Below are positions 4,273 to 26,291 of a DNA stretch of 64,000 bases, one piece after another; position 1 is the stretch's first letter; every line of letters starts with the position of its first letter. Source of the stretch: a virus; the IMG/VR virus record IMGVR_UViG_3300035703_000059, positions 11,407 to 75,406 of that record, one strand, 5' to 3'. A program made the position numbers and the translations under genes. A model generated the notes under the pieces. That model had not been told where the DNA came from, ran no database searches, and was given only the letters and a program-made list of their open reading frames with translations.

Positions 4273-5754
4273 ATGGCACAGGTTCAGCTTGAAGAACTGA
4301 TTTACGCAGAGAGTCTCGACAACAGCGCGGGTCCGCAATACGATCTTCCGCTGCTGAGTGTGGACATCGGTCCCGCGACGTGGGTCGGCACGATGGGTGA
4401 CGGCAGCGTGACGCCGCTGTCCAAGTATTTTGCCGCGCAGCTTCAGCGGGCGGCGGCTCTCGTCAACCCGTCCGACGCGCTGCCCTTGTTCAAGGCGTTG
4501 GTGAGCATCCAGACGCTCAAGAACGGCCAGCCTACCCCGGCGGTGGGCGGAAGCTCGGTTGGCAGCGTCGTGACGTTCTACGCCACGATTCCGGCCGCGT
4601 ACATCGGGTCGTTCGTGTGGGGCATGACGCCCGACTCGACCGGCGGCTGGGCGCTTCCCGGTGGAGGAGCGGCTGGTGGCGGCGGTGGCGGAGGGGGTGC
4701 GCCGAGTGGTCCCGCTGGCGGCGTGCTGGACTACGTTGAAATCGATGGCGTCACGAACCCCTCGACCTACCCCAACCCGAACGGCCTTGCGGTGGTGGTG
4801 GACGACGGCGGCGGCGTTTGGCGAATCCCCGTTCGCAACAACGATCCGGGGAAAACCACCTTGGCGATTGGTCCCGACGCAAACAATCCGTTTAGCGGTG
4901 GCACCGAGACTTGGAGTTTCCGAGGGCCGGACGGGGCCGCGACCAACGATCCGCTGATCAATGCCGACGACGGCGTGAAGGCTGAGATTCGCTCTGGTCG
5001 TGGCGGCGATAGTTTGCCGAACGATGTGACGGCGACCGCGAACGGCGGCGCCGGGGCGGAACTTTACGTTTGGGCCGGCGACGGTGGTCAAGGCGGTGGT
5101 GGTGGTGGCGCTGCGGGCGGTGGCGGTGGCGTAACTGTGCGCGCCGGATATGGCGGCCCCGGAGGCGCGGGTGTCGCTGGCGGGCCACCCGGTGACGGCG
5201 GTGACGCGGGGATTACCGCCGGATACGGCGGCACCGGGTCCGCTACCCATCCAGCAGGAAAAGGCGGTCGGCTTCTTCTCTACGCTGGTGACGCCGGAAG
5301 CGACGTCGGTGGCGGCGTTGGAGCCGGTGGGAATGTCATCATCAAGGGCGGTAATCGGTCTGACAACGGCGCCGCCGGGAACAACGGCCGAATTTTGCAC
5401 GACTCCGTTTCGTCTTTCGCGGCGCTTCAAAGCGTCAACATCACCGCCGTAACGACTCAGTTCGGGTTCGTGAACAGCCCGGTCATCGCCATCGACAGCG
5501 ACGCGGCCTACGTCATGGCCCCGGCCGGCAAGCTGATCGAGGACGGAAGCGAGGACGGCGACACCGTGACGATCCAGAACGTCGGCATCTTCGCGATCAC
5601 GCTTCAAGGTGAGGCGACGTCTGCCGGCTCGAACCTTCTGATCGGCGGCGGATCATCGAGGCAGCTCAGCCCCAACGGCGGAAACATCACGCTGCGATGG
5701 TCCGACAATTTCACCAAGTGGATCGAGATCGCCTTCGCGGGGTCTGTGACCTAG
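4273..5754 (+). CDS. Glycine-rich fibre/receptor-binding-like protein
   Basis: AGGAG RBS; repeated (hydrophobic)x-AG-x-GG units and poly-Gly tracts; beta-rich C-terminal domain. Confidence 0.6.
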   Translation: MAQVQLEELIYAESLDNSAGPQYDLPLLSVDIGPATWVGTMGDGSVTPLSKYFAAQLQRAAALVNPSDALPLFKALVSIQTLKNGQPTPAVGGSSVGSVVTFYATIPAAYIGSFVWGMTPDSTGGWALPGGGAAGGGGGGGGAPSGPAGGVLDYVEIDGVTNPSTYPNPNGLAVVVDDGGGVWRIPVRNNDPGKTTLAIGPDANNPFSGGTETWSFRGPDGAATNDPLINADDGVKAEIRSGRGGDSLPNDVTATANGGAGAELYVWAGDGGQGGGGGGAAGGGGGVTVRAGYGGPGGAGVAGGPPGDGGDAGITAGYGGTGSATHPAGKGGRLLLYAGDAGSDVGGGVGAGGNVIIKGGNRSDNGAAGNNGRILHDSVSSFAALQSVNITAVTTQFGFVNSPVIAIDSDAAYVMAPAGKLIEDGSEDGDTVTIQNVGIFAITLQGEATSAGSNLLIGGGSSRQLSPNGGNITLRWSDNFTKWIEIAFAGSVT

Positions 5755-5780
5755 TTCGGTCATCAACTAGGAGCGCATCG

Positions 5781-6182
5781 ATGGCGTCGTGTCCGGTCAT
5801 CCGCAAAGAGTTTCAGCGCCTCACGAACATGAGCGCCGCTGAGATTCGGTCGTGGGCGAAGGATGACCGGGCGAAGTGCTTTTCGCAGAAGGCAACGCGG
5901 CGACGGCTCACGCAGCCCTCAATCTATCGAGGGCATCGTGTGCCGTCGCTCGCGAACCTTCGCAAGCGCGCCTTCACGGGGGCGTGGTCGGAAGAGGACT
6001 GCTGGTACGGGAACATCGTCAACGGGTTCAACAAGCGGTTCTTGAAGATGAAGCAGAAGCACGGCTGTACGGACGGGATCGTCGTCGCGCTGCGGAATTG
6101 GGGCCACCAGCCGAAGTCGTGCGCGGTCCCGACGAAGAAATGCAAGCGCGAGCATGAGCCGCGCGTATCGAAGAAGGGATGA
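5781..6182 (+). CDS. DUF3140-like basic protein
   Basis: F..LTNMSAAEIRSW and LRNWGHQP match the recalled NM..E...W / L.NWGHDP signature. Confidence 0.55.
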   Translation: MASCPVIRKEFQRLTNMSAAEIRSWAKDDRAKCFSQKATRRRLTQPSIYRGHRVPSLANLRKRAFTGAWSEEDCWYGNIVNGFNKRFLKMKQKHGCTDGIVVALRNWGHQPKSCAVPTKKCKREHEPRVSKKG

Positions 6183-10451: not shown

Positions 10452-10661
10452 ATGGCAACCAAGAAGAAAAGCACGAAGCGGCCGGCGAAGAAGGGGAGCG
10501 CCAAGGTGTCGCTGAAGGGTCTGGCGGCTCTGCCGCACAAGGATCGCTTCAAGAAGATCGCGCAGTCCTGCCAGCTTGAGGTCACGGCCGGGGGCAAGTC
10601 GCGCGCGAAAGAAGTCGGCAAGTGCATGAAGCGTGAGTTCAAGGCGTTGAAAGACGCGTAA
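10452..10661 (+). CDS. Lys-rich basic (DNA-condensing-like) protein
   Basis: GGAGG RBS, ATCGATG; MATKKKSTKRPAKK; LKGL motif; Cys pair. Confidence 0.65.
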   Translation: MATKKKSTKRPAKKGSAKVSLKGLAALPHKDRFKKIAQSCQLEVTAGGKSRAKEVGKCMKREFKALKDA

Positions 10662-12793: not shown

Positions 12794-13432
12794 GTGGCGA
12801 TTCTGACTCCCGCTCCGATCAACTTTCAGCAGAAAATCCGCAGCGAACTTGCGGAGGCTCTGCGGCTGAACTTCGGCGACATCTTTCCGACCATCCTGCA
12901 CCTTCGGGTGACGCTGGGCGGGACGCTGAACCCCGGACCGCCCCCGACGGTGACGCTGCCGACCCCCGGCAACGACATCTTCCGCATCCCCGGCGACTAC
13001 TCGCTGCTCGTCGGCGAGATTCGCGGCCACATCGCGCTCAACGAACTGTCGCAGGAGTCGACGACGGCTCCGACGAACACGGGCCTTCTGAACATCGCCG
13101 GTGTGCGTAACCGCGTCGTCGCCAAGGCGCTGAACGCGCGCATGGTGCTGGTCAACGCGGACCGCGACAATCTGAAGTTCGTGGAGACGGACATCGCGAA
13201 CAGCGCGAACCCGCTGGGCATCAGCGCGAACCTCTGCCTCGCGAACCTGCTCCCGGCGGCCGGTGGCTCCCCGATCAAGCTGATCGGGGACGGCGACGTC
13301 ATGCCGCTCATCGTGCCGGGCAACGAGCGCATCAAGCTGACCGTCGCACTCAACGACGAGAACGCGTCGCTGGGCCAGACGGAGTACGGACTGACGCTGA
13401 TGGGCGCCTTCGTGCGTTCGCGGGGTAGCTGA
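12794..13432 (+). CDS. Putative third jelly-roll capsid protein
   Basis: FRIPGDYSLLV, VVAKALNARM and C-terminal TEYGLTLMGAFVR; clear paralog of 12210..12782. Confidence 0.55.
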   Translation: MAILTPAPINFQQKIRSELAEALRLNFGDIFPTILHLRVTLGGTLNPGPPPTVTLPTPGNDIFRIPGDYSLLVGEIRGHIALNELSQESTTAPTNTGLLNIAGVRNRVVAKALNARMVLVNADRDNLKFVETDIANSANPLGISANLCLANLLPAAGGSPIKLIGDGDVMPLIVPGNERIKLTVALNDENASLGQTEYGLTLMGAFVRSRGS

Positions 13433-15225
13433 TGAAAACGGTCGCCGACCAAGTGCGTGAAATCCGCGCCGCTCTCATCGCGCAGCACAAGCGCGAGGGC
13501 GTCGGCGACATCGCCTCCGCGAAGATGCAGACCGAGCGCGAACTGGCGCTCACGAAGATCTACGGGGGCGTCCCCGGCTACTACGGCCCGCCGCCGCCCT
13601 CGCGTGGTCTGAGTGCGGTGTCGAACGCGATCTGCCCGCCGGGATTCAAGCGGGACCGCGTCTCCAATCAATGCACCGTCGCCATCGAAGAGAACCCGTC
13701 GTACCTGCCGGGCATCACCGAGTTCCAAGGCCCGACGCTGATGCAGAACTCGCGCGTCGACAACTTCGTCATGCAGGCGCCGAAGTTCCGTGCGCCGACG
13801 ATGCTGTCGGGCCTCGGTGATCTGTCGACTGATGCCCCGTGGCCGGCGTATACCGCGACTGAGTTGACGTGCAACGCGTTCAGCGGAGACGATGGGTATG
13901 CGAAATGGTCGATGTCGCAAAAAGTCAACCAAGCGGTAATCAAATGGGTGGCCTACTGGAGAAATCCGAATAACACCAGCCCCTCCGGCGGCACCGTATC
14001 TTCTCTTCGCGCCGATTTGATCACGGAGAGGGATGTCACGGACGAATTCAAAAACGCGGTTCGCAAGCGAAACCCCTGTCGCCCCTCTCACATCGATGCG
14101 CTAGTCCGCGCCTTCCCGCCGGGCCGTGGGGCCGGCGTGCTGGCGTGTGAGACAACCTATGAGTGCGCCAAGTACGGCAAGGTCTGCGTGAACGGGGTGT
14201 GCGAGGGTCAGTTAGTGTTCTGCGAGAAGACTGATGACTGCCAGAAGCTCGACTTTACCTACGTCTGCTCCAACGAAATCAGCTCCGTTCGTCCCCAGCC
14301 GCACGCGATATATAGTGCGCCTTACTGCACGCCAGCCCGCGCTAACGAAGTTGCGTTGTGGTCGGCCAAGAAGCGTGCAGCGGCGGCGGCAGCAACGGCT
14401 GAAGCTCGCGCCTTGCAGCAATCCGCGAATCGCGCCCAGCAGGCCCGTCAGCGTGCCGCATCCGGTGCTTCGGCACGAACGGCGGCCATCGAGAGCGCCA
14501 TACCCAGCATTTCTGCGTCGAAGTCTGCGGGGCGCGCGCGGGCAGCCGTTGCCGCAGCGGCAGCAGCAGCGGCGGCTCGCGGCGTTGGTCCGGGGACATC
14601 GACGATGTCGCCGGCCGATGCAGCGGCTCGTCAGCGCGCGGCGGCGGCCGTAGCTGCGGCGGCGGCTGTGGCGCGAGGACGCGGCCTTACGCCGGGAGCA
14701 GGCGCGGCGGCGGCCGATATGTCGCGCGCGGGCCAGCAGGCCACCGCCGACGCGGCGGCAGCGCAGGCGGCGCGTCAATCGTCGGCCGACAAGGCGGCGT
14801 GCCGACCGGAGTGCAAGACGGGCGAGGTCGCGGAGCGCATCCCCGGCACGAAGTGCTATCGATGCGTCGTTCCGCCGCTCCCGACCGACACGAAGCCACC
14901 CGAAACCAAGGTGTGCGACCCCGGATTCGTTCTCAACGCCGACGGCGGCTGCGTTCCGGCCACGCAAATCGAGCGTCCGCCGGAGTGTCCGGCGTGTCCG
15001 AAGGTGCGATGCCCGTCGTGTCCGCCCCAGCAGTCGTGTCCGACCTGCCCGCCGTGTGACGTCACCGGCGGATACGGTGGCAGCGGCGGCGGCGGTAGCG
15101 GCGGCGGTGGGGGTGGCGGCGTCACCTACATCGACAAAGAGTGTCCGGCCTGCCTTCAGAAGAAACCGAGCATTTGGCCGTGGGTGGTCGCCGGCGTTGC
15201 GACCCTCTACGCTGTCACCCGATAA
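13432..15225 (+). CDS. Large Cys-rich/Ala-rich protein with C-terminal TM
   Basis: LSGLG motif; Cys repeats (CETTYEC..CVNGVC; CPxCP); Ala-rich helix; C-terminal TM. Confidence 0.75.
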   Translation: MKTVADQVREIRAALIAQHKREGVGDIASAKMQTERELALTKIYGGVPGYYGPPPPSRGLSAVSNAICPPGFKRDRVSNQCTVAIEENPSYLPGITEFQGPTLMQNSRVDNFVMQAPKFRAPTMLSGLGDLSTDAPWPAYTATELTCNAFSGDDGYAKWSMSQKVNQAVIKWVAYWRNPNNTSPSGGTVSSLRADLITERDVTDEFKNAVRKRNPCRPSHIDALVRAFPPGRGAGVLACETTYECAKYGKVCVNGVCEGQLVFCEKTDDCQKLDFTYVCSNEISSVRPQPHAIYSAPYCTPARANEVALWSAKKRAAAAAATAEARALQQSANRAQQARQRAASGASARTAAIESAIPSISASKSAGRARAAVAAAAAAAAARGVGPGTSTMSPADAAARQRAAAAVAAAAAVARGRGLTPGAGAAAADMSRAGQQATADAAAAQAARQSSADKAACRPECKTGEVAERIPGTKCYRCVVPPLPTDTKPPETKVCDPGFVLNADGGCVPATQIERPPECPACPKVRCPSCPPQQSCPTCPPCDVTGGYGGSGGGGSGGGGGGGVTYIDKECPACLQKKPSIWPWVVAGVATLYAVTR

Positions 15226-16824: not shown

Positions 16825-17412
16825 GTGGCCGAAACTCGTCGATTTTCACAGGCCAACGACTTCGGATTCGTCAACCGTCAAGACGACGAGGTGATGTGCG
16901 CCGCAAGCGGCGCCGTGCCGTATCGGACGGTCTGCCAAGTCATCGATGACGCGGCGATCTACTACGCAACCGCCGGGGAAGGCGCCCTGCTCGACATCCG
17001 GCGCTGGTACAGCCAAAGCCCCGAATTCTTCCCCGGCTCGTTCCTCCCGGCGGGCGCGATTCCGGCGTTCTACCGGGCGATTCTGGCGCGTGCGTTTTTC
17101 GCCGAGTTTGGCGGCGCGAACTTCGTCCCGACGCTTCGGCAGATGATCGTCGTGCTGAACATGGTCGAGGAACCGCGCGGGCGTGAGGACGACTACGCCA
17201 AGACGCGGACGGCGGTGAAGGCGATCCTCGGCGTGTGCGAAAAGACGTTCAACGGACAGCCCGCGTGCAGTCCGGGGGAAATATCGTGGGCCGCAGAGCG
17301 GATGAACGCCCTTGATCGGGCAGAAACCGCCGGCCCCGGCGTCAACATGATGCTCATCGCCGTTCCGGCGCTCTTGTTTGCGGGCGCGCTGCTGCTTCGG
17401 CGGCGCGGGTAG
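16825..17412 (+). CDS. C-terminally anchored protein
   Basis: GTG start with GGGAG; 4 Cys; TM followed by RRRG. Confidence 0.7.
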   Translation: MAETRRFSQANDFGFVNRQDDEVMCAASGAVPYRTVCQVIDDAAIYYATAGEGALLDIRRWYSQSPEFFPGSFLPAGAIPAFYRAILARAFFAEFGGANFVPTLRQMIVVLNMVEEPRGREDDYAKTRTAVKAILGVCEKTFNGQPACSPGEISWAAERMNALDRAETAGPGVNMMLIAVPALLFAGALLLRRRG

Positions 17413-17421
17413 GGGAACGCG

Positions 17422-19521
17422 ATGGCCGACAACGAGAACACCACACCGCCGGGATTCGTCAGCACCTTTCCCGTGTTCGCTGAGTGCGATTCCATTCTGC
17501 GCGCAACGCGGGAGGGCATCGGTCTTTTGACGGGTGGGGAAGAGGGCAGGCGCCGGGTCGATGTGAAGTACCTTCGATGCCAGCTTCTCACGCAGAGCCG
17601 GACCGAACTTGGAGATCGGTCGCTGCTCCAGTTTCCGCTGTGGTGGGACTGCCGGCCGACGAGCGGCACCTTCGATCCGGGTGACGTTTTGCGGCGGGCC
17701 TACGCAAAATACACGCAGAAAGACCCCAACTCTGCGGACATCGGATTCATCGCAGGCATCCTTCGCGAGATCGACGACCTTCAAGAGGGGGGCGGCTCCA
17801 GCGAGGACCGGGCCAACTACGAGGGAAACGCGGGTTCGTACACCATCATTCAGAACCTCCTGCTGGCCCTCTCCGACTTCCCTCGGCAGGGGTCGGACGG
17901 ACGCGCGAACCTTGAGACAATCGTCGATTTGTCGCTGCGCGTGACCGACTCGATCAAAGACATCATCGTCAAAGCGTTTCCGGCGGCGGGCGGCGTCGGC
18001 GACAACGTCGTCCGCATCCTCAAGATTTTCCTCGACGGCATCTTCTACATGGGTGACGCGGTCGCCGAGGAGAAGGCGCTGCGGACCGAGATGGCCTCGC
18101 GGCTAATCTCCGACGAACGCGTGACGAACGTCGGCGGCGGCTACGAGAAGTTCTACGGCAACCGGCCATCGATGATCACGACCCGGTCGTGGTGCGCTGC
18201 CGGAAACGCTGCGCGCGACAACTACCTCGCCCCCGGAACGAACGGCGCGTACCTTCGGGCGAAGACCCGATACGATGACGCGCGGCGGTTCTTGGACACG
18301 TTCGCCGCGATGCTTGAGCGGACGCAGGGCGAGTCGACGCCGAAGACGCGCGAGCGGGTATTCGCACGATTCCAGCTAATCGGAAGCTGGATGCTGGCGT
18401 ATGCCGCCGACGAGGTATGGCTGTCGGATTACATTACCTACGACACCATCTTCGACCGCCTTCGATTGTCGGCGGCAGACGCGGTCGTGAAGGTGACGTT
18501 TGAGCCGAGGCTCATCGAGTTCAAGCGCCTCTACCCGTATTCGGCGCGGGCGGCGACTCGTCTTGAGTGCGATTACCCCGACTGCGACACGGATTTCTGG
18601 ATTCCGTTTTGGGCGGACACGAAAGCCGGAAACTGGAATCTGAAAACCGGAACTGCCGACATCGGTGTGACGGAAAAGGCGATCAGAGACGCGACGAACA
18701 TCACCTTCGACTTTTACGCCACCGCGATTCCGAAGCGAAGCGTGACCGGGCGCCGGTACAACAGCTACAAGTCGAAGTCGGTCGTGGACGTGTCGCTTAC
18801 GGTCATGCCGCTTGTGAACACGCTGTATGAGTGGGCGCGAGCCGCTGCCCCTACATGGGGGAAGATTAAGCAATACAATCTGATCCGTTACGCGCTGACC
18901 GGGTACGCGACCGGCGCCGTCAAAGACTTCGGCGAGTACGCGAAGAACCGCATCGATGTCTACGACCCGGCGTTTCGCCAGAGGTTCATCGACACCCCGC
19001 TGACGTGGCAGCAGATCGCGCTCTACATCATCGCCGGGCGCACGGACCTTGGGCCGCAGCCGAGGCCGGAAGAGTTCAACGTCGCGGCGACGCGGTGTCC
19101 CGGCGGCTCGTCGGACACGTCCTGCCTGCCCTGCGAGAAGATCAAGAATCGGCGCCCCATCGGCGCACGGGAAGTCCAAATCCCGATGCTCGTCGGCTAC
19201 ACGCCGCCTCTGGCGACGTTCGTCGGCAGCACGAACTATCGGGGTTCGGTGGAGTACGCGGCGTGGCGAAAGGCGCTCGTCGATGCGGGTTATCCGGGGT
19301 ACTACATCGACTGCATCGAACGTGACGTGACGTGGGTGTCCTCGCGGGCTGGCGAGGTGATTTCGGTTCGTCCGCCGCCGCCGCTCGTCGTCAGTCTACC
19401 GCTGGCCGCTGTGCCGAAGCCCCGCGCGGTGCGGACGTCGGACATTCCCGAACTCACCGGAATCACCCGGCCGCTCGTCGCCGAGATCGCGGGGCCGATG
19501 CTGCCTCGAAGGACTCGATAA
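17422..19521 (+). CDS. Large hypothetical protein (699 aa), putative virion/entry protein
   Basis: Long ORF in the structural operon; no family recognised. Confidence 0.7.
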   Translation: MADNENTTPPGFVSTFPVFAECDSILRATREGIGLLTGGEEGRRRVDVKYLRCQLLTQSRTELGDRSLLQFPLWWDCRPTSGTFDPGDVLRRAYAKYTQKDPNSADIGFIAGILREIDDLQEGGGSSEDRANYEGNAGSYTIIQNLLLALSDFPRQGSDGRANLETIVDLSLRVTDSIKDIIVKAFPAAGGVGDNVVRILKIFLDGIFYMGDAVAEEKALRTEMASRLISDERVTNVGGGYEKFYGNRPSMITTRSWCAAGNAARDNYLAPGTNGAYLRAKTRYDDARRFLDTFAAMLERTQGESTPKTRERVFARFQLIGSWMLAYAADEVWLSDYITYDTIFDRLRLSAADAVVKVTFEPRLIEFKRLYPYSARAATRLECDYPDCDTDFWIPFWADTKAGNWNLKTGTADIGVTEKAIRDATNITFDFYATAIPKRSVTGRRYNSYKSKSVVDVSLTVMPLVNTLYEWARAAAPTWGKIKQYNLIRYALTGYATGAVKDFGEYAKNRIDVYDPAFRQRFIDTPLTWQQIALYIIAGRTDLGPQPRPEEFNVAATRCPGGSSDTSCLPCEKIKNRRPIGAREVQIPMLVGYTPPLATFVGSTNYRGSVEYAAWRKALVDAGYPGYYIDCIERDVTWVSSRAGEVISVRPPPPLVVSLPLAAVPKPRAVRTSDIPELTGITRPLVAEIAGPMLPRRTR

Positions 19522-20325
19522 ATGGACACCCCCATCTACAAGCGCGCATGGTTCTGGGTCGTCGTCGGTGGGGCGATTCTCCTCGCCATCCGCCGCAAGC
19601 AGGTCGAACTGACCCCTCCGCCGAAGCTGCCGGGGCCGGAGGTCGCGCCTCCGTCGGGGTCGGCGTCGATTGACCCGTTCCGCACGACGAACCTGTCGGC
19701 CGAGCAGGAGCGCGCGTTCATCGCCGCCCTGCCGAGAGCCGGCCAGCAGTACGGCGCGCTGTTCGCACAGGCGGGTCGCGAGAAGGGCATCTCGCCGCTC
19801 TTGCTCGCGGCCATCTGCGAGACGGAGACGTACTACGGCGAGGCGGCGGCGTGCAAAGGCAAGGGTCCGGCCTGCGAGGGAACGCTCGCCGACGACTTCG
19901 GCCTCATGCAGATCAACAGCAAGGCGCACCCGGAGTTCTTCAAGCGAAGCGTCAACGGCACGCCCGCGTGGAAGGTGCCGCTGGAAAACATCCGCTACGG
20001 TGCCGAGGTCTGGAACTCGTCGCTCGCATCGATGCGCGGGCGTCCGAACTCCAGCGGCAAGGTCGACGTCGGCGCGCGGCGAGCCGCGCAGCTTCTCGTC
20101 AAGCCGGGCAAGTACCCCGACCCGCGTCCGATGGACATCGATCTCGCACGCTGGGCCGCGACTTCGGGCTACAATGCAGGACCGATGGCGGCAATCATCG
20201 CGGTGGCGGCGGACAGGTCGCCGGACGCCGTGACGCACGGCAGCAAGTACGGCAAGACGGTTCTGGACAAGCTGGGGAGAATCTTCAACAAGACGGTCGA
20301 GAACTTGAACCGGGGAGCACAATGA
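19522..20325 (+). CDS. Membrane-anchored lytic transglycosylase (SLT family)
   Basis: N-terminal TM; AAICETET (catalytic E), GLMQIN, GYNAG. Confidence 0.85.
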   Translation: MDTPIYKRAWFWVVVGGAILLAIRRKQVELTPPPKLPGPEVAPPSGSASIDPFRTTNLSAEQERAFIAALPRAGQQYGALFAQAGREKGISPLLLAAICETETYYGEAAACKGKGPACEGTLADDFGLMQINSKAHPEFFKRSVNGTPAWKVPLENIRYGAEVWNSSLASMRGRPNSSGKVDVGARRAAQLLVKPGKYPDPRPMDIDLARWAATSGYNAGPMAAIIAVAADRSPDAVTHGSKYGKTVLDKLGRIFNKTVENLNRGAQ

Positions 20326-20519
20326 GCGCGCCGAAAGTGATCAAGACGATGCAGTTTCCGACGCCGACAGCGGCGAAGCAGTACCTCGCGCAGATGGGGG
20401 CGCAGTACCGCAAGATCGACGAGTTGACCGGCAAGCCGCTCTACAAGACCCCGGCGGGCATCGTGTTCCGCCCGTCGTCACCGCAGGCGCTTGAAGTGCT
20501 TGCGAACTGTGTGTGCTAG
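20322..20519 (+). CDS. Small hypothetical protein
   Basis: GGGGAG RBS, ATGA overlap; ends CVC. Confidence 0.6.
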   Translation: MSAPKVIKTMQFPTPTAAKQYLAQMGAQYRKIDELTGKPLYKTPAGIVFRPSSPQALEVLANCVC

Positions 20520-20528
20520 GAGTCATCG

Positions 20529-20900
20529 ATGGCCGATATGATTGCGATGCTGAACGGGCTGGGCGCCTACGGCGAGTTTCCGATTGGGGACGTCGATCCG
20601 GCGACGAGCGCGCGCATCGGCCAGACCTCGCCGGGGACGGGCCTGTCGAACGAGCAGATCACCGTCTACAACCCGCAGCCGTACACGCTGGGGAAGATCG
20701 ACGACGAGGAAGAGGGTCTGAGCGGGACGACGTGGCTGTTCATCGTGCTGGGCCTCGGCGCTGCGGCGTGGGGCATCTCCAAGATGGTCAAGTCTGCGTC
20801 GCCGGAGCCGGGCGAGGACTTCCTCGACGGCATCGCCGAGCCGGAGATGATCGAACTCAACGCGCCCCCCGCACGCACGCGGGGCAAGGGGAAGCGATGA
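20529..20900 (+). CDS. Single-TM protein
   Basis: ATCGATG start; MLNGLGA motif; central TM. Confidence 0.7.
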   Translation: MADMIAMLNGLGAYGEFPIGDVDPATSARIGQTSPGTGLSNEQITVYNPQPYTLGKIDDEEEGLSGTTWLFIVLGLGAAAWGISKMVKSASPEPGEDFLDGIAEPEMIELNAPPARTRGKGKR

Positions 20901-21127
20901 CGCTTGAGCAATTTCTCGCCGACGACCGGACCCGCGAACTGATGACGCGCATCGTCAACGGTGAGCCGCCGAAGTCGGCTGTGGCCGGACTCGCGGGAAA
21001 CGTGCTGGCCGCAGAACTTGCGAAGTTGATGGGCGTTCCGCCGCCCCCGATGACGCAGGCATCGAAGCAAACGGTGACGGTCAAAGCGACGCCCGACGTG
21101 GTCGACGCAGAATTCAAAGAGGTGTGA
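20897..21127 (+). CDS. Small hypothetical protein
   Basis: ATGA overlap; ends VVDAEFKEV. Confidence 0.6.
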   Translation: MTLEQFLADDRTRELMTRIVNGEPPKSAVAGLAGNVLAAELAKLMGVPPPPMTQASKQTVTVKATPDVVDAEFKEV

Positions 21128-21128
21128 G

Positions 21129-21521
21129 ATGGCTCGCGAAGTGAACTACTACCAGTTGGCGGCTCTTGGGGCGGACGCCTGTCCCGCCAACATGAGGACG
21201 GTGCAGAAGCCCGACGGCGGCGTCGAGTGCGTGCCGCTGGAAGGTCCGGCTCCGCAGGGCTACCTCGCGCGGATCAAGGGCGCCGCGACGACCGAAGAGT
21301 TGTCGGCGGTCTACAACGGCGCGCTCGTTGACCCGGCGGTGTCTCGCGAGATGCTGAAGGAACTCGGCGAAGCCTACGCGTGGAAGTACGCCGAACTGAC
21401 GACGAGGCCGGGCAAGAAGGGGCTGCGTTGGCACCATGCGTTCTACGTCGTCGGCGTCGCGCTCCTCTGGAACGCGTGGCGCAAGTCGCAGGGCAAGCCG
21501 TTCAATCCGTTTTCACGGTAG
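21129..21521 (+). CDS. C-terminally anchored protein
   Basis: GAGG RBS; Cys pair; C-terminal TM. Confidence 0.65.
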   Translation: MAREVNYYQLAALGADACPANMRTVQKPDGGVECVPLEGPAPQGYLARIKGAATTEELSAVYNGALVDPAVSREMLKELGEAYAWKYAELTTRPGKKGLRWHHAFYVVGVALLWNAWRKSQGKPFNPFSR

Positions 21522-21532
21522 GGGAGATACCG

Positions 21533-21823
21533 ATGAAGCCGATGCTGACGTTCGTCTACATGGATGGGTGCGGGGCGTGCGAGACGGCGAAGCCGGAACT
21601 CGACGCGTTCAAGGCCGCGCACCCGGAGATCGCCATTCGACGAATCGACCTTCTCGCGGTCCGCTGGCCGGAGGGGTCGTGGGCGCCGACGGCGACGCCG
21701 ACCTATCTCGCGGAGTTCGGGAACCGTCGGCCGGTGGGGTACGTCGGCGCGCTCAAGAAGGCGCAGATCGAGCAGTTCCTTCGTGAAGCCGCGCCGCGAC
21801 TCGGACTCGCGGCTCCGTTCTGA
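21533..21823 (+). CDS. Thioredoxin-fold protein (CGAC)
   Basis: FVYMDGCGACETAKP and cis-Pro motif ATPT. Confidence 0.85.
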   Translation: MKPMLTFVYMDGCGACETAKPELDAFKAAHPEIAIRRIDLLAVRWPEGSWAPTATPTYLAEFGNRRPVGYVGALKKAQIEQFLREAAPRLGLAAPF

Positions 21824-21832
21824 GGCGCATCG

Positions 21833-22150
21833 ATGACTCTCCTCGCCATCCTCGCCATCGGATTCGCCGCCGCCGGCCTCGCGCTCGTCGTTCGCGCGCT
21901 CGTCCCGACGCTGTGGCTCCTCATCAAGCCGTTCTCCTGCGACCTCTGTATGTCGTGGTGGGGGTCGGTGGTGTTCACGCTTCTCGCCGGGGAGTGGTCC
22001 GTGGACGCGCTGACGGGCCTGTTCGGAGGCGTCGCAGTCTCGGTCGCGATGCTGAAGGTCGTCTCTTCGTTGTCCGATGTGGGCGCCGCGCCCCCGCCCA
22101 CGTTGTCGGATTCCCCCGACTTGGGCGATACTTTTCCCGAAAAGGAGTGA
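21833..22150 (+). CDS. Membrane CxxC protein (DUF1360-like)
   Basis: Three hydrophobic helices with KPFSCDLCMSWW. Confidence 0.65.
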   Translation: MTLLAILAIGFAAAGLALVVRALVPTLWLLIKPFSCDLCMSWWGSVVFTLLAGEWSVDALTGLFGGVAVSVAMLKVVSSLSDVGAAPPPTLSDSPDLGDTFPEKE

Positions 22151-22154
22151 CCCC

Positions 22155-23000
22155 ATGTTCTCTTCCGGCAATCCCGAACTGATGTCCGCCCTCGCCGGCA
22201 TCGCGCGCCTCGGCGCCGCGCCGAGCGTGACCAAGCGTGCGAAGAAGCTGCCCGCAGAAGCGCGCGCGGAGTTGAGGTCGATTCAGAAGCGGTTTGCCGA
22301 TGATCGCAAGGCCGCCATCGAAGCGCTGTTCGCGAAGTACCCCGCAGCGAAGATGCTGTCGCCGAAGGAGATGAGCGAGATTCGGCAGGTCGTCGATCTC
22401 TTCATCCTCAACGACGACTCCAAGGTGACGTCGTCGGGCGTGCAGTCGGACGGCGGCATGACGCTCAAGGTCGGCGGCAAGGTCGTCGCCGAGCGCAAGG
22501 CTCCGTACTCCCGATTCATGCGCGTCTGTGCCGGCGAGTTCGGTGCGGATATGACCAGCCGCCGCGCGGCGAACGCGCTGCTCGACGCGCTGGGCGCGGG
22601 CCTCTCGTTCCGTGACCGCGACGGTCGCGCGTTCATCACCCCGAAGGGGCGCGGCGCCGGTCGTCTGGTGTCCGAGTCGGCGTGCCACACCGTCGAGGTC
22701 AACGCTTCGATGCGTAACCGCGCAGTCGCCAACGTGAACCGCGCCATCCGCGAAGCCGGTCTGGACATCCAGCGGTTCGCCATGCCGACCGAGGGCGCAT
22801 CGGCGACGTCGCCGGTGCAGCGCGCGGTCGCGGCTCGCGAGGCGACGGCTGCGGCCGAGCGCGCAGCGGTGGCCGAGGCGTATCGTGGAAGTCAGTCGGC
22901 GGCGGCGCAGTACGAGTCGATGGTTTCGCGCCCCACCAAGCGTCAGCAGGCTGCACGGAAGGCGGCGGCGACCCGCCGTCGGAACGCGTCGCGTCGATAG
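22155..23000 (+). CDS. Basic Ala/Arg-rich protein (core-like)
   Basis: AAGGAG RBS; LAGI motif; C-terminal AARKAAATRRRN. Confidence 0.7.
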   Translation: MFSSGNPELMSALAGIARLGAAPSVTKRAKKLPAEARAELRSIQKRFADDRKAAIEALFAKYPAAKMLSPKEMSEIRQVVDLFILNDDSKVTSSGVQSDGGMTLKVGGKVVAERKAPYSRFMRVCAGEFGADMTSRRAANALLDALGAGLSFRDRDGRAFITPKGRGAGRLVSESACHTVEVNASMRNRAVANVNRAIREAGLDIQRFAMPTEGASATSPVQRAVAAREATAAAERAAVAEAYRGSQSAAAQYESMVSRPTKRQQAARKAAATRRRNASRR

Positions 23001-23069
23001 TCAGTCAACCTTGCGGCGTAGACCGCACAACAAGCGGCACCCCCGCCGCGCAAGAAACAGGAGGCCGTT

Positions 23070-23258
23070 ATGGCTGCAAAGCGTCCGAAGAAGGTGATGG
23101 CGAAGATCAAGGGCAAGAAGATGGAGTGCAAGCTGAACTGGAAGGGCAAGGATCCCAAGAAGAAGCCGAAGGCGTCCTGCAAGCCCGTCGTCGCCAAGAA
23201 GGCCTCCAAGAAGAAGGCCTCCAAGAAGAAGAGCAGCAAGAAGTCGAGCAAGAAGTAA
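23070..23258 (+). CDS. Very Lys-rich histone-H1-like protein
   Basis: GGAGG RBS; KKASKKKASKKKSSKK; Cys pair. Confidence 0.75.
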   Translation: MAAKRPKKVMAKIKGKKMECKLNWKGKDPKKKPKASCKPVVAKKASKKKASKKKSSKKSSKK

Positions 23259-23341
23259 TCGACGCCCTGCACCACTAGGGTCGATGAACGCAGGGGTCGT
23301 CGGACAGGTGCCGACGGCCCCTCGTCTTTACGGAGGAATCG

Positions 23342-23677
23342 ATGGAACCGACACCGTTCACAGGCAGCTTGACGTTCGATCACGTTCTCGCGTTTCTCGG
23401 CGCGCTGGTGCCGCTGATGAGCGCGCTCGCGGCGTTCCTCAACCACAAGGTCCGCGTCAGCGGGACGGCGTCGCCGTTCCTGCTCAACGCGGCGGCGGCG
23501 GTGAACGTGCTGGCCGTCAACGTCGACAAGGCGACCCAGCTTGCGAAGCTCGCACGCGGTCTGCCGGTGCCGTCGACTCCCGCACCGGCGGCTCCCGCCG
23601 TGGTGGACGTCGGCGCAGCGGCCGTTGAGCCGGCGCCTGCGGGTCAGCCGGAAGTGTGTCCGACGTGCGGGCGCTAA
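23342..23677 (+). CDS. Putative holin-like membrane protein
   Basis: GGAGG-AATCG-ATG; two hydrophobic helices; ends CPTCGR. Confidence 0.5.
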   Translation: MEPTPFTGSLTFDHVLAFLGALVPLMSALAAFLNHKVRVSGTASPFLLNAAAAVNVLAVNVDKATQLAKLARGLPVPSTPAPAAPAVVDVGAAAVEPAPAGQPEVCPTCGR

Positions 23678-23937
23678 TCGCGTCGGTGGTGACGGGGCTG
23701 GTCGTCGCGCTTTCGACGGCTGCCCTGTTCCTGCTCCGCGTCATCCCTCGCCGGGACGAGGAGCAGCGTCAGCGGGCGGAGGCATTGGCCGCCGACCTGC
23801 GGCGGAAGATCGAGGAAGCCAAGGCCGCTCGCGCGGCGGCGGTCGCGCAGCAGGTCGCGGTGGTGACGCAGGCCGGCGAGGCGGACAAGAGCGCCGACTC
23901 CGTGGGCGTCGCGAACCGAATCATCGGAGGCTCGTGA
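23656..23937 (+). CDS. N-terminal TM plus coiled coil (spanin-like?)
   Basis: TM followed by a helical domain; start uncertain. Confidence 0.45.
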   Translation: MSDVRALIASVVTGLVVALSTAALFLLRVIPRRDEEQRQRAEALAADLRRKIEEAKAARAAAVAQQVAVVTQAGEADKSADSVGVANRIIGGS

Positions 23938-24158
23938 TGCAGAACCAGAAGAACACCCAGCTTGTTCGCATGGCCGACGTGTTCGTCATCGGCCCGCTGA
24001 TGACCTACGGCGGACTCCGCATGATGAAGAGCGGCGAGAAGCTGCTCGGCCTCACGCTCGCGGCGTTCGGTCTGGCGACCGTCGTCTATAACGGCGTGAA
24101 CTACATCGATATGAAAGAAGCGCTCGACCGAGAGGACCGCATCGATGGGCCGATTTGA
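23937..24158 (+). CDS. Small two-TM protein
   Basis: GGAGG RBS, TGATG overlap; DVFVIGP..VYNGVNY. Confidence 0.6.
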   Translation: MQNQKNTQLVRMADVFVIGPLMTYGGLRMMKSGEKLLGLTLAAFGLATVVYNGVNYIDMKEALDREDRIDGPI

Positions 24159-24594
24159 GTGGGTCTTGATCGCGCTGTACGGCGCGCTCCTCGCGTGGAT
24201 TCCGATGTGCCACGACGCGCGCGCCGACGAGGCGTGCCGGGCAGTCGGCGACACCGTCGTCTGCCAGCGCGCGGGGTTCGACACGCTCGTCGACAAGTGC
24301 GTGGACGCCGACACGCGGGCCAAGGTCTGCTCGATCAATCTCTTTGAGGCGGTCCGCCAGCGCGACGAGTCGCGCGCGGCGTTCGACGCCTGTGCGGCAG
24401 CGCCGCGCCCCGTGCCTCCGCCCCCGCCGGAGCCGTCCCGGCGTCCGCTGGTGGCCGTGGCCGTCGCTGCGGCAGGTGCGGCGGCTGTCGCCCTGTCGGC
24501 GACGCTCGACGTGCCTGTGGGCGCCCGTGCGGCCCTCGCAGGGGCCGGCGTGCTGGGCATGGGCGCGGGTGTCGGCCTCGCGGTGGCGTGGTAG
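24145..24594 (+). CDS. Cys-containing membrane protein (lysis accessory?)
   Basis: N-terminal signal, Cys-containing helix, Pro linker, two C-terminal TMs. Confidence 0.55.
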   Translation: MGRFEWVLIALYGALLAWIPMCHDARADEACRAVGDTVVCQRAGFDTLVDKCVDADTRAKVCSINLFEAVRQRDESRAAFDACAAAPRPVPPPPPEPSRRPLVAVAVAAAGAAAVALSATLDVPVGARAALAGAGVLGMGAGVGLAVAW

Positions 24595-24640
24595 GCTCGC
24601 GGGGACACCGCGCAACTGATTGCGCCAACAGGAGTCATCG

Positions 24641-24922
24641 ATGGCAGCCAAGAAGAAGAGGAAGTCCTCGTCGAAACGCAAGATGACGGAGGCGCAGTAC
24701 CGCGCTGCCGTGCGCGCAGGACGTATCGTTCCGGCCAACTACCAAGCGGCCGTGATGGCCGACGTTGATGACGAGTGGAACCGGGCCGTGCGCCGGCAGC
24801 AGGGCGTCGGCGGGCTTACCAGCCCCGACGGCGTCATGGGATTGGCCGTCGGCGCGGTGATCGGAATCGTGGGCGCGCTCCTGTGGAAAGCGTCGAGCGA
24901 CATCGCGAAGAAAGACGCGTAG
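24641..24922 (+). CDS. Basic protein with C-terminal TM
   Basis: AGGAG, ATCGATG; MAAKKKRK; VGGL motif before the TM. Confidence 0.65.
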   Translation: MAAKKKRKSSSKRKMTEAQYRAAVRAGRIVPANYQAAVMADVDDEWNRAVRRQQGVGGLTSPDGVMGLAVGAVIGIVGALLWKASSDIAKKDA

Positions 24923-24949
24923 CAATCGCGCAACCGGCCGGGAGAAACG

Positions 24950-24993
24950 AAAAAAGGGGGGCGACGGCGAAAGATGCCGTCGCCCCCCGTTTC
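24950..24993. terminator. Intrinsic terminator between convergent operons
   Basis: 13-bp stem GGGGGGCGACGGC/GCCGTCGCCCCCC; A6 on the left, GTTT on the right. Confidence 0.8.
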
Positions 24994-25006
24994 CTTCGAT
25001 GCCGTT

Positions 25007-25298: not shown

Positions 25299-26291
25299 TT
25301 ACTTTCTCCGCAGCACGTCGGCCGCGCTGCCTTTCGTGAAGGGGTTGTTTCGGCGGTCGTACATCTCAAGGGTTTCGGTTCGCTTGTGGCCGGTGGTCTG
25401 CATCGTGGCGCTGTCGGCGACGCCGCGCGCACGGGCCTCGGTGACGTGTCCGGCGCGCAGGCTGTGGCCGCTGAACGTGGTGCCGTCGAGTCCGGCGCGG
25501 TCGGCCGTGCTTTTGACGATGAGGGCGACGCTCTGCGGTGAGAGCGCCTTCGCGCGCACCCCGCCCTCGCGGGCAAGGGGGCGGAACACCGGGCCGTTCG
25601 CGATGCCAGCCTCTCGCATCCAAGCGGCGAGGGCGGACGCCGCGCAGGTCGGGCCGCCGATGTAGGGGATCGCCTTGTCGAGTCCGGCGCCCCGCTGGTC
25701 GGTCTTGGACCGGCGCACCGTGACGACGACGCCCTCCTGCGACCATCGAAGGTCGCGGGCTTCCAGCGCGCACAGTTCGGACCGGCGGAACGCCCCGGCG
25801 TAACCGACGAGCAAGATCGCCCGCGCGCGCCGGGCCTCAAGGTCGGTCCGGTCGCCGAACGTGGCGACCATCGCTTCGATGGCGTCGAACGTCGCAGGCG
25901 CCTTCGCCTCGACGCGGATGCCGAACGTGGCCTCGACGCCCTTCATGGCCGTCTTGACCGCCTCGGTCGAGCAGGGGTTCGGCAGGCTCTTGACCCCGTG
26001 CATCTTGCCGATGGCCGCGAGCCGCCGCCGCAGGGACGACGGCTTGAGGGTGTCGGCCCGCGCGACGAGGTAGGCGACGACGGTGCGCGGGTCGGCGGGC
26101 AGGTTGGAGCTTCGATGCTCGCGGCAGAAGTCCGAGAAGTCCGCCCAATCGGCCCGGTACGCCCGCTGCGTGTTCTTCGGCACCGCGCGCTCGACGTAGC
26201 CGCGCGCGGCCTCAAGAGCGGGCGCGAGGGCGGCGAGGTCGGCGGTCGGCACGGGGCCGGAGAGAACGAGCGCGTCGGGTTTCTTGGGCAT
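25299..26291 (-). CDS. Tyrosine recombinase, Cre-like family
   Basis: NTQRAY..W..F; AFRRSEL, RSKTDQ, GHSLRAG, TGH..Y catalytic residues. Confidence 0.92.
   Translation of the reverse strand: MPKKPDALVLSGPVPTADLAALAPALEAARGYVERAVPKNTQRAYRADWADFSDFCREHRSSNLPADPRTVVAYLVARADTLKPSSLRRRLAAIGKMHGVKSLPNPCSTEAVKTAMKGVEATFGIRVEAKAPATFDAIEAMVATFGDRTDLEARRARAILLVGYAGAFRRSELCALEARDLRWSQEGVVVTVRRSKTDQRGAGLDKAIPYIGGPTCAASALAAWMREAGIANGPVFRPLAREGGVRAKALSPQSVALIVKSTADRAGLDGTTFSGHSLRAGHVTEARARGVADSATMQTTGHKRTETLEMYDRRNNPFTKGSAADVLRRK

What the first reader, a model, noticed from the sequence alone, without database searches (positions are those of the whole stretch)
21533..22150. Thioredoxin plus membrane CxxC pair: a candidate virus-encoded disulfide relay
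Seen: adjacent genes for a signal-less CGAC thioredoxin and a 3-TM CDLC protein, inside an operon where many proteins, even Lys-rich ones, carry paired Cys. Known: DsbA/DsbB or VKOR pairs, and the poxvirus E10-A2.5-G4 pathway that oxidises virion membrane proteins in the cytoplasm. Inference: a bacterial-virus analogue that forms disulfides in virion proteins during cytoplasmic assembly.
Basis: partly seen in the sequence, partly recalled or inferred. Interest (0 to 1): 0.7.

Follow-up and report, generated by a model that had tools for sequence, protein, structure and literature searches.

The report
Phage thioredoxin beside CxxC membrane protein
An uncultured 75-kb bacterial virus has, side by side in its late genes, a real thioredoxin with an isomerase-like active site and a small membrane protein with a cytoplasm-facing Cys-x-x-Cys. 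This makes them a testable but unproven candidate for the phage-encoded disulfide machinery that 2026 papers say has not been found.

Summary
Gene 21533-21823 encodes a 96-aa signal-less minimal thioredoxin (CGAC, cis-Pro). Gene 21833-22150 encodes a 105-aa three-helix membrane protein whose invariant CxxC caps helix 2.

- Both genes lie in the same order in all 9 related contigs.
- A deeply diverged relative (thioredoxin 28% identical) has an ATGA start/stop overlap between the two genes.
- The thioredoxin always has Thr before the cis-Pro, which marks DsbC/DsbG-type isomerases rather than reductases.
- Late proteins favour even Cys counts (24 against 11, p about 0.002), and the Cys pairs are conserved in relatives.
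- The genome has no ribonucleotide reductase.

Against a DsbB/VKOR/Erv-type relay:
- The membrane protein has one Cys pair, three helices, and no match to those families.
- No electron sink is encoded.
- Other genes sit between the pair in 7 of 9 clade contigs.
- The membrane protein's family (about 400 clusters, distantly DUF1360-like) occurs in many phages, including two complete genomes with no thioredoxin.

Best reading (about 0.4): a late viral thiol-disulfide exchange pair that acts on cytoplasm-facing Cys pairs. The direction of electron flow is unknown.

The scan had already noted similar candidate pairs on other DNA (e1-5980631, e1-5999700, e1-5324900).

The parts
21533..21823 (+). 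Minimal thioredoxin, 96 aa, cytoplasmic. CGAC is at residues 13-16 at the start of helix 1. T55-P56 is the cis-Pro loop. It lacks thioredoxin's N-terminal strand and helix, and helix 2.
   Evidence: Pfam Thioredoxin E 7.6e-4, below the cut-off. The profile of 10 homologues hits E. coli Trx1 variants in the PDB at about 1e-8. AF2 pLDDT 92.7. Foldseek TM 0.77, rmsd 1.8 A to E. coli thioredoxin. Invariant columns.
21833..22150 (+). Three-helix membrane protein, 105 aa. Family motif [KR]-P-[LWF]-[SAG]-C-x-x-C-[ML]-[SAG]-[FW]-W, with the CxxC capping helix 2. The C-terminal tail is Pro-rich and acidic. Predicted topology is N-out, loop 1 and C-terminus in.
   Evidence: AF2 pLDDT 90.8. 405 representative clusters at E <= 1e-3, a few of them zinc-finger false positives. 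Motif and charge bias over 123 members: loop 1 K+R 2.86, N-terminus 0.07, loop 2 0.48. Weak DUF1360 and phrog_781 matches. ESM Atlas structure match to a DUF1360 cluster, TM 0.64.
21815..21835 (+). Gene junction: thioredoxin stop TGA (21821-21823), GAGG ribosome site overlapping it, then ATG at 21833. The two genes are tightly packed in one operon.
   Evidence: Sequence read directly. The same junction is a 4-nt overlap in L009 and an ATGA overlap in L048/G009.
20322..20519 (+). 65-aa late protein ending in C-x-C. Candidate client of the thioredoxin (inference only).
   Evidence: C63 and C65 are conserved in 4 of 4 relatives at 45-66% identity.
22155..23000 (+). 281-aa late protein with exactly two Cys (125 and 177) and a basic tail. 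Candidate client (inference only).
   Evidence: Both Cys are conserved in 4 of 4 relatives, down to 26% identity.
19522..20325 (+). Lytic transglycosylase (SLT domain). Listed as context: cell-wall enzymes lie near the membrane protein's homologues in several lineages.
   Evidence: Pfam SLT E 5.3e-8. Homologues lie in the same block in L005 and L009.

Best explanation
These are two co-transcribed late genes of a complete 75-kb virus. Gene 1 encodes a cytoplasmic, redox-active minimal thioredoxin. Its active-site determinants are those of disulfide isomerases or mild oxidases, not of reductases: Thr before the cis-Pro, CGAC or CPAC, and an aromatic residue where thioredoxin has its buried Asp26. 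Gene 2 encodes a small membrane protein of a large uncharacterised phage family that is distantly DUF1360-like. Its invariant CxxC sits at the N-terminal cap of helix 2 on the cytoplasmic face. I think the two most likely exchange thiols and disulfides with each other and with the conserved Cys pairs of cytoplasm-facing domains of late (virion or membrane) proteins. In that picture the thioredoxin is the soluble catalyst that forms or reshuffles pairs, and the membrane protein is its membrane-bound partner or client. Shown here: fold, motifs, conservation, gene linkage, predicted topology, even-Cys bias, and the absence of known oxidases and of ribonucleotide reductase. Inferred: any thiol exchange between the two proteins, the direction of electron flow, and the idea that the Cys pairs are disulfides at all.
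For: The thioredoxin fold and active site are confident. Thr at the position before the cis-Pro is invariant in the 10 aligned clade thioredoxins and is also seen in the L031, G009 and G008 thioredoxins. Ren et al. 2009 (PMC2665069) report Ile there in thioredoxins and Thr in DsbC/DsbG, 'absent in reductases'; the I75T change makes E. coli thioredoxin 45 mV more oxidising. Linkage: the thioredoxin gene lies upstream of the membrane gene in 9 of 9 clade contigs (own, L004, L005, L006, L007, L008, L009, L010, L031). The genes overlap by 4 nt in L009. G009 has an ATGA overlap, although its thioredoxin is only 28% identical and its membrane protein is barely alignable (hhalign E 2e-4). Charge bias puts the CxxC loop in the cytoplasm, within reach of a signal-less thioredoxin. 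The late block has an even-Cys excess with conserved pairs. Several Cys-bearing domains lie on the N-terminal, predicted cytoplasmic, side of C-terminal membrane anchors, out of reach of host DsbA. The genome has no ribonucleotide reductase, the most common client of phage thioredoxins.
Against: Conserved gene order in a viral late operon is expected from common descent alone. Other genes (0.6-2.7 kb) sit between the pair in 7 of 9 clade contigs, and in G008 the two genes are 28 kb apart on opposite strands. The membrane family occurs without this thioredoxin within 5 kb in L013, L016, L026, L027, L029 and L030. Two complete phage genomes that carry it have no Pfam thioredoxin hit at all. No oxidant or cofactor site is evident, and no fused thioredoxin-membrane form was found, though that is weak evidence. 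There are no experimental data of any kind. Several neighbouring proteins have CxxC...CxxC or CxC...CxC spacings that look like zinc sites.
Confidence: 0.4

Rival explanations
1. The two genes are unrelated neighbours. The thioredoxin is an ordinary phage thioredoxin that works as a reductant for host or viral enzymes or for redox takeover. The membrane protein has its own role in morphogenesis or at the host membrane, and its CxxC is structural or binds a metal.
For: Phage thioredoxins are common; the BFVD hits are dozens of phage and giant-virus thioredoxins and phrog_22. The membrane family occurs in many phages without a thioredoxin. In Bacteroidota siphophages it lies between tail genes and the tape measure, for example PDS1 gp55. 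Insertions between the two genes are tolerated. In G008 they are 28 kb apart.
Against: The genes remain adjacent, with an ATGA overlap, across a divergence to 28% identity. The Thr before the cis-Pro is untypical of reductases. The genome has no ribonucleotide reductase. The thioredoxin gene sits in the late block, not in the replication block.
Confidence: 0.35
2. One reading: an oxidative relay. The membrane protein is a DsbB/VKOR-like oxidase, facing the cytoplasm and passing electrons to a membrane quinone. It re-oxidises the thioredoxin, which then puts disulfides into virion proteins during cytoplasmic assembly, by analogy with poxvirus E10R-A2.5L-G4L.
For: The CxxC sits at the N-terminal cap of a membrane helix, as in DsbB and VKOR (the comparison rests on my knowledge of those structures). 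A nearly invariant Trp lies four residues after the second Cys. The thioredoxin has oxidising-type determinants. Paired, conserved Cys lie in cytoplasm-facing domains. Published papers state that the machinery for phage virion disulfides is unknown.
Against: There is one Cys pair, where DsbB, VKOR and Erv1 each have two. There are three helices instead of a four-helix bundle. There is no Pfam hit to DsbB, VKOR, DsbD or Erv1. There is no fold match (an absence only). No cofactor site is known. The family is common in phages that lack a thioredoxin.
Confidence: 0.12
3. The membrane protein is a holin-like or otherwise cell-wall/lysis- or entry-associated membrane protein, and the thioredoxin is irrelevant to it.
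For: It has three helices, a predicted N-out/C-in topology and a charged C-terminal tail, like class I holins (the comparison rests on my knowledge of lambda S). Homologues lie directly after a Peptidase_M23 gene in L013 and L016 (Pfam) and in L015 (by eye), and after a PG_binding_1-like protein in L011. An SLT gene lies 1.5 kb upstream here. One ESM Atlas structural neighbour cluster carries Phage_holin_5_2 in 18% of its members.
Against: This genome's M15/VanY endolysin is 30 kb away. In Bacteroidota siphophages the homologue lies in the tail module, not in a lysis cassette. An invariant CxxC is not a holin feature. No holin Pfam or PHROG family matched.
Confidence: 0.12

Closest known systems
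E. coli thioredoxin 1 (TrxA) and phage-encoded thioredoxins (Pfam PF00085, phrog_22)
   Same: Same fold (TM 0.77, rmsd 1.8-2.0 A, 22-25% identity). The CxxC is at the start of helix 1, there is a cis-Pro loop, and the protein is cytoplasmic.
   Different: 96 aa. It aligns only to Trx residues 25-106, so the N-terminal strand and helix are missing, and helix 2 is replaced by a 17-residue loop with two invariant Trp. It has CGAC or CPAC instead of CGPC, Thr instead of Ile before the cis-Pro, and an aromatic residue instead of the buried Asp26. It scores below the Pfam cut-off (19.9 against 23.5 bits).
DsbC/DsbG-type disulfide isomerases (active-site signature only)
   Same: Thr immediately before the cis-Pro, which Ren et al. 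2009 link to a more oxidising potential and to isomerases.
   Different: No signal peptide, no dimerisation domain, and a cytoplasmic location. The isomerases are periplasmic and are kept reduced by DsbD.
Pfam DUF1360 (PF07098) and phrog_781, small membrane proteins of unknown function
   Same: A small multi-helix membrane protein with CxxC-x-x-x-W at the start of a membrane helix. It is the only Pfam family that recurs among family members (7 of 23 and 8 of 123). An ESM Atlas structure match gives TM 0.64. A related Bacteroidota phage gene is annotated DUF1360.
   Different: All matches are below the curated cut-off (the matches whose scores were listed reach 16-17 bits against a cut-off of 21). 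P0002 itself has no hit. No function is known for DUF1360.
DsbA-DsbB and VKOR with its thioredoxin-like partner
   Same: A thioredoxin-fold protein paired with a membrane protein whose CxxC caps a membrane helix.
   Different: Those oxidases have four or more helices, two Cys pairs and a bound quinone, and they face the periplasm. This protein has three helices and one pair, is predicted to face the cytoplasm, and shows no sequence or fold similarity.
Poxvirus E10R-A2.5L-G4L cytoplasmic disulfide pathway (PMC9282662, PMC1318495)
   Same: A virus-encoded thioredoxin-like protein made late, in a virus whose late block encodes many predicted membrane-anchored proteins with paired Cys on the cytoplasmic side.
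   Different: No Erv1/ALR flavin oxidase in this genome or in three relatives. No A2.5L-like adaptor was identified. There is no homology beyond the thioredoxin fold.

Membership tests
Thioredoxin family (PF00085) | Thioredoxin fold: central sheet with flanking helices | tested here: met
   AF2 pLDDT 92.7 with strand-helix-strand...strand-strand-helix order. Foldseek E 5e-6, TM 0.77 to E. coli Trx.
Thioredoxin family (PF00085) | CxxC at the N-terminus of helix 1 and a cis-Pro loop | tested here: met
   C13 and C16 sit at the start of helix 14-29. A54-T55-P56-T57 is invariant and aligns to thioredoxin's G-I-P-T.
Thioredoxin family (PF00085) | Score above Pfam's gathering cut-off | tested here: not met
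   19.9 bits against a cut-off of 23.5. The family profile nevertheless hits solved thioredoxins at about 1e-8.
Reductase-type thioredoxin (TrxA-like) | CGPC, Ile before the cis-Pro, and a buried Asp26 | tested here: not met
   CGAC or CPAC, Thr55, and Phe or Tyr at the Asp26 position. Rule from PMC2665069.
DsbB (PF02600) | Four membrane helices, two periplasmic Cys pairs, quinone site | tested here: not met
   Three helices. One Cys pair. The CxxC loop is predicted to be cytoplasmic. No Pfam hit in the genome or among family members.
VKOR (PF07884) | Four-helix bundle with an active-site CxxC plus a pair of loop Cys | tested here: not met
   No hit in the genome at E <= 1. One Cys pair and three helices.
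Erv1/ALR sulfhydryl oxidase (PF04777) | FAD-binding helical bundle with CxxC | tested here: not met
   No hit in this genome at E <= 1, nor in G005, G006 and G007 at E <= 0.1.
DUF1360 (PF07098) | Score above Pfam's gathering cut-off (21 bits) | tested here: not met
   P0002 has no hit. Members match only weakly: best E 5e-4, and 16-17 bits where scores were listed. Together with the structural neighbour, this points to a distant relationship at most.
Poxvirus-type three-component disulfide pathway | Erv1-family oxidase, adaptor and thioredoxin-like protein all present | tested here: not met
   Only the thioredoxin-like component is present.
Class I holin | Three helices N-out/C-in, forms lethal membrane holes, usually next to an endolysin gene | tested here: inconclusive
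   The predicted topology fits. M23 or PG-binding genes are neighbours in some lineages, but not here. Hole formation cannot be tested with these tools.

The most novel reading that the evidence does not exclude
DUF1360-like phage membrane proteins are a new class of cytoplasm-facing, membrane-embedded thiol oxidases built from one CxxC at a helix cap. In lineages such as this one they work with a dedicated phage thioredoxin or glutaredoxin, and together they form the phage-encoded disulfide-forming machinery for virion proteins that is stated to be unknown (PMC13576161; bioRxiv 10.64898/2026.07.24.740622).
Probability: 0.12. Interest if true: 0.85.

Novelty: new variant of a known kind. Interest (0 to 1): 0.5.

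Why it matters
Cryo-EM work from 2026 shows phage virions held together by extensive disulfide networks. [quoted passage not shown] This locus offers a concrete, clonable pair to test: a thioredoxin with isomerase-type determinants and a cytoplasm-facing membrane CxxC protein. The pair has stayed linked across deep divergence, in a virus whose late proteins carry conserved Cys pairs on the side of the membrane that host DsbA cannot reach. A positive result would also give a first function to a family of about 400 sequence clusters of phage membrane proteins. A negative result would leave an ordinary phage thioredoxin next to an uncharacterised membrane protein.

Tried and rejected
- No cultured-phage match for P0002, P0031, P0121 or the L022 homologue by tblastn. 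No DNA similarity of 17001-25000 to any deposited phage.
- No relative of the membrane protein in the genome-contig scan. The P0139 scan found nothing. Alignment A3 was too diverse for a scan.
- No solved-structure match for the membrane model. Foldseek gave nothing at E <= 0.001. VIA-align's best Z was 7.0, to parts of unrelated transporters, within the noise for helical proteins. This is an absence only, not proof of a new fold.
- The profile hits to C2H2 zinc fingers are a chance match of K-P-F-x-C-D-x-C to the finger linker. I rejected them as homology.
- No fused thioredoxin-membrane protein among longer proteins or in the top 150 of the exhaustive search. This is weak evidence.
- No RNA holder was listed among the sequencing runs, so I did not lay reads.
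- A role in ribonucleotide reduction is rejected, because the genome has no ribonucleotide reductase.

Full report
WHAT IS THERE. The window is bases 11407-75406 of a 75,406-bp IMG/VR virus record with direct terminal repeats, rated 100% complete. The + strand block from the genome start to window position 24922 is one co-directional late block of about 50 genes by my codon-model gene call. The finding's two genes lie in it exactly as described. The first is a 96-aa ORF at 21533-21823 with CGAC at residues 13-16. Nine bases later comes a 105-aa ORF at 21833-22150 with CDLC at residues 36-39. Each has a ribosome site, and the second site overlaps the first gene's stop codon.

THE THIOREDOXIN. 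On its own the protein scores below Pfam's cut-off (Thioredoxin E 7.6e-4, 19.9 against 23.5 bits). A profile of ten homologues hits E. coli thioredoxin 1 variants at about 1e-8 to 1e-7 and other solved thioredoxins somewhat more weakly. It aligns to Trx residues 25-106.
- The AlphaFold2 model is confident (pLDDT 92.7). It shows a minimal fold: strand 4-9, helix 14-29 starting at the CxxC, strand 34-39, a 17-residue loop with two invariant Trp in place of helix 2, strands 57-61 and 68-71, and helix 76-90.
- Foldseek puts it closest to classical thioredoxins (TM 0.77, rmsd 1.8-2.0 A, 22-25% identity) and to many phage and giant-virus thioredoxins.
- There is no signal peptide.
- Both Cys and the A-T-P-T cis-Pro loop are invariant. 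The dipeptide between the Cys is G-A or P-A.
- The position of thioredoxin's buried Asp26 holds Phe or Tyr.
- The residue before the cis-Pro is always Thr. Ren et al. 2009 (PMC2665069) showed that this position is Ile in thioredoxins and Val in DsbA and glutaredoxins. It is Thr in the isomerases DsbC and DsbG, and Thr is 'absent in reductases'. The I75T change makes E. coli thioredoxin 45 mV more oxidising and lowers the pKa of the attacking Cys.
By these rules the protein is redox-active and not of the purely reducing type. Its actual potential is unknown.

THE MEMBRANE PROTEIN. P0002 has no Pfam, PHROG or NCBIfam family.
- A word-based search found 23 close homologues. An exhaustive profile search found 405 representative clusters at E <= 1e-3, nearly all 85-140 aa. 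A few long zinc-finger proteins among them are false positives.
- Over 123 members P33, C36 and C39 are invariant, and R21 and W43 nearly so. The motif is [KR]-P-[LWF]-[SAG]-C-x-x-C-[ML]-[SAG]-[FW]-W.
- The AlphaFold2 model (pLDDT 90.8) has helices at 3-23, 37-52 and 57-84, with the CxxC at the N-terminal cap of helix 2.
- Mean K+R is 2.86 in the 15 residues before the CxxC, 0.07 in the N-terminus and 0.48 after helix 2. By the positive-inside rule the N-terminus is outside, and the CxxC loop and the acidic, Pro-rich tail are in the cytoplasm.
- The only recurring Pfam family among members is DUF1360, always below its cut-off (7 of 23 and 8 of 123; best E 5e-4). Six members weakly match phrog_781, of unknown function.
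- The ESM Atlas gives a DUF1360 cluster as the nearest structure (TM 0.64), and otherwise unnamed clusters of tailed phages.
- No solved structure matches, and none of DsbB, VKOR, DsbD or MerT appears.
- The literature says nothing on the function of DUF1360.

LINKAGE. Nine contigs of this virus clade carry both genes, always with the thioredoxin gene upstream: the window's own genome, L004, L005, L006, L007, L008, L009, L010 and L031.
- The gap is 9 nt here and a 4-nt overlap in L009. It is 0.6-2.7 kb in the others, where other genes lie between, including a GP88-family protein and Cys- and Lys-rich proteins.
- In G009 (59 kb) a thioredoxin only 28% identical to P0001, again with CGAC and Thr-Pro, ends in an ATGA overlap with the start of a 113-aa membrane protein. 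That protein has the same design (helix 1, basic loop, C-P-A-C-F-G-F-W at a helix start) but is barely alignable to the family (hhalign E 2e-4).
- G009 shares one further late protein with this genome, and it has similar basic proteins with an xGLG motif. It is therefore probably a deep relative, not an unrelated lineage.
- In G008 (95 kb) both genes exist but lie 28 kb apart on opposite strands.
- Against an obligate partnership, homologues of the membrane protein stand without this thioredoxin within 5 kb in L013, L016, L026, L027, L029 and L030.
- Two complete genomes that carry the membrane protein (G001 of 80 kb and G002 of 102 kb) have no Pfam thioredoxin hit at all. The same search does find the thioredoxin in this genome.
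- In Bacteroidota siphophages the homologue lies between tail genes and the tape measure (PDS1 gp55, annotated DUF1360). In L013 and L016 it follows a Peptidase_M23 gene.
- No fused form was found.

CONTEXT.
- The minus-strand block holds a family A DNA polymerase fused to a UDG domain, an SNF2-type helicase and an SbcC-like ATPase.
- In the late block I found an M15/VanY endolysin, a fibre-like protein, an SLT transglycosylase and a LysM protein. No terminase, portal or HK97-type capsid family matched.
- About 20 of the 50 late proteins have a predicted membrane segment, often at the C-terminus.
- The genome has no Erv1, DsbB, VKOR or ribonucleotide reductase hit and only this one thioredoxin. 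Three relatives also lack Erv1.
- Late proteins favour even Cys counts: 24 even against 11 odd, p about 0.002 by random placement. The Cys pairs are conserved in relatives down to 26% identity.
- Several Cys-bearing domains lie N-terminal to a C-terminal anchor. They would therefore be cytoplasmic and out of reach of host DsbA.
- Some spacings (CxxC...CxxC, CxC...CxC) look like zinc sites, so parity alone does not show disulfides.
- The source sample is a subsurface metagenome. Part of the stretch also occurs in freshwater runs, and no RNA holder was listed.

HOW IT MOST LIKELY WORKS. I commit, at about 0.4, to a late-expressed thiol-disulfide exchange pair. The soluble thioredoxin has isomerase- or oxidase-like determinants and acts on cytoplasm-facing Cys pairs of late proteins. 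The membrane protein's cytoplasmic CxxC is its membrane-bound partner or one of its clients. The direction of electron flow is not determined.

The membrane protein has one Cys pair, three helices, no known cofactor site and no similarity to any known oxidase, and no electron sink is encoded.

The main rival, at about 0.35, is that the two are unrelated neighbours whose order is inherited. In that case the membrane protein has a morphogenesis, entry or lysis role of its own, perhaps holin-like, or with a metal at the CxxC.

COMPARISON, NOVELTY, WEIGHT. The thioredoxin is a new, trimmed member of a known family with an unusual active-site signature. The membrane protein belongs to a large uncharacterised family. 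The pairing resembles DsbA-DsbB, VKOR and the poxvirus pathway in outline only, and it fails their defining features.

Two 2026 papers state that phage-encoded disulfide machinery is unknown (PMC13576161) and that the origin of virion disulfides is an open question (bioRxiv 10.64898/2026.07.24.740622). The pair is therefore worth a bench test.

The same scan has flagged similar candidates on other DNA (e1-5980631, e1-5999700, e1-5324900). Those are unchecked notes. I used one as a lead and tested it, and I do not count them as evidence.

LIMITS. G009 was reached through a lead chosen for showing this pairing, so it is not an unbiased sample.

Noticed in passing
window 13432-15225 (+): A 597-aa late protein with 27 Cys, by far the most Cys-rich in the genome. 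It has no Pfam or PHROG family.
   Followed up: no
window 20529-20900 and 22155-23000; L031:2948-3463 and 5238-6068; L002:5188-6180; L045:1879-2523(-): Small-residue motifs of the type L-x-G-L-G or L-A-G-I/L lie near the N-termini of several late proteins and are conserved in relatives. They also occur in the deep relative G009, next to Arg-rich stretches. They could be maturation cleavage sites. First-stage notes e1-6023970 and e1-6023972 raised the same point.
   Followed up: no
L003:2383-3735 (same contig as L005): A GP88-family protein (Pfam E 1.4e-18) with many Cys lies between the thioredoxin and the membrane gene in this relative. In L002 a 448-aa Lys- and Cys-rich protein holds that place. 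In L008 the protein there looked by eye like a Dam-type methylase.
   Followed up: partly
G006 (record of L005), 52,638 bp: IMG/VR classes this relative as a provirus. The window also has a tyrosine-recombinase-like gene at 25299-26291, which I did not test; first-stage note e1-6023974 calls it Cre-like. The clade may therefore be temperate, and the ends of that record could name the host.
   Followed up: no
L041 (Croceibacter phage P2559Y, NC_023614.1) record 10468-10647: A homologue of the CxxC membrane protein (41.7% identity to the L029 protein) lies in an unannotated gap between P2559Y_0013 and P2559Y_0014, just before the tape measure gene.
   Followed up: partly
L013:3734-3946, L016:5049-5276, L020:143-361: In the high-GC clade where the membrane protein follows an M23 peptidase (L013, L016), a 70-75-aa protein ending in or near a C-P-C motif lies just upstream of the peptidase. 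L020 has a similar protein upstream of its homologue.
   Followed up: no
window 5781-6182 (+); L016:7347-7664; L013:5665-6033: A basic 133-aa protein with 6 Cys has homologues (28-29% identity) about 1 kb downstream of the membrane protein's homologue in L013 and L016. Those contigs may therefore be distant kin of this virus, although no thioredoxin lies nearby in them.
   Followed up: no
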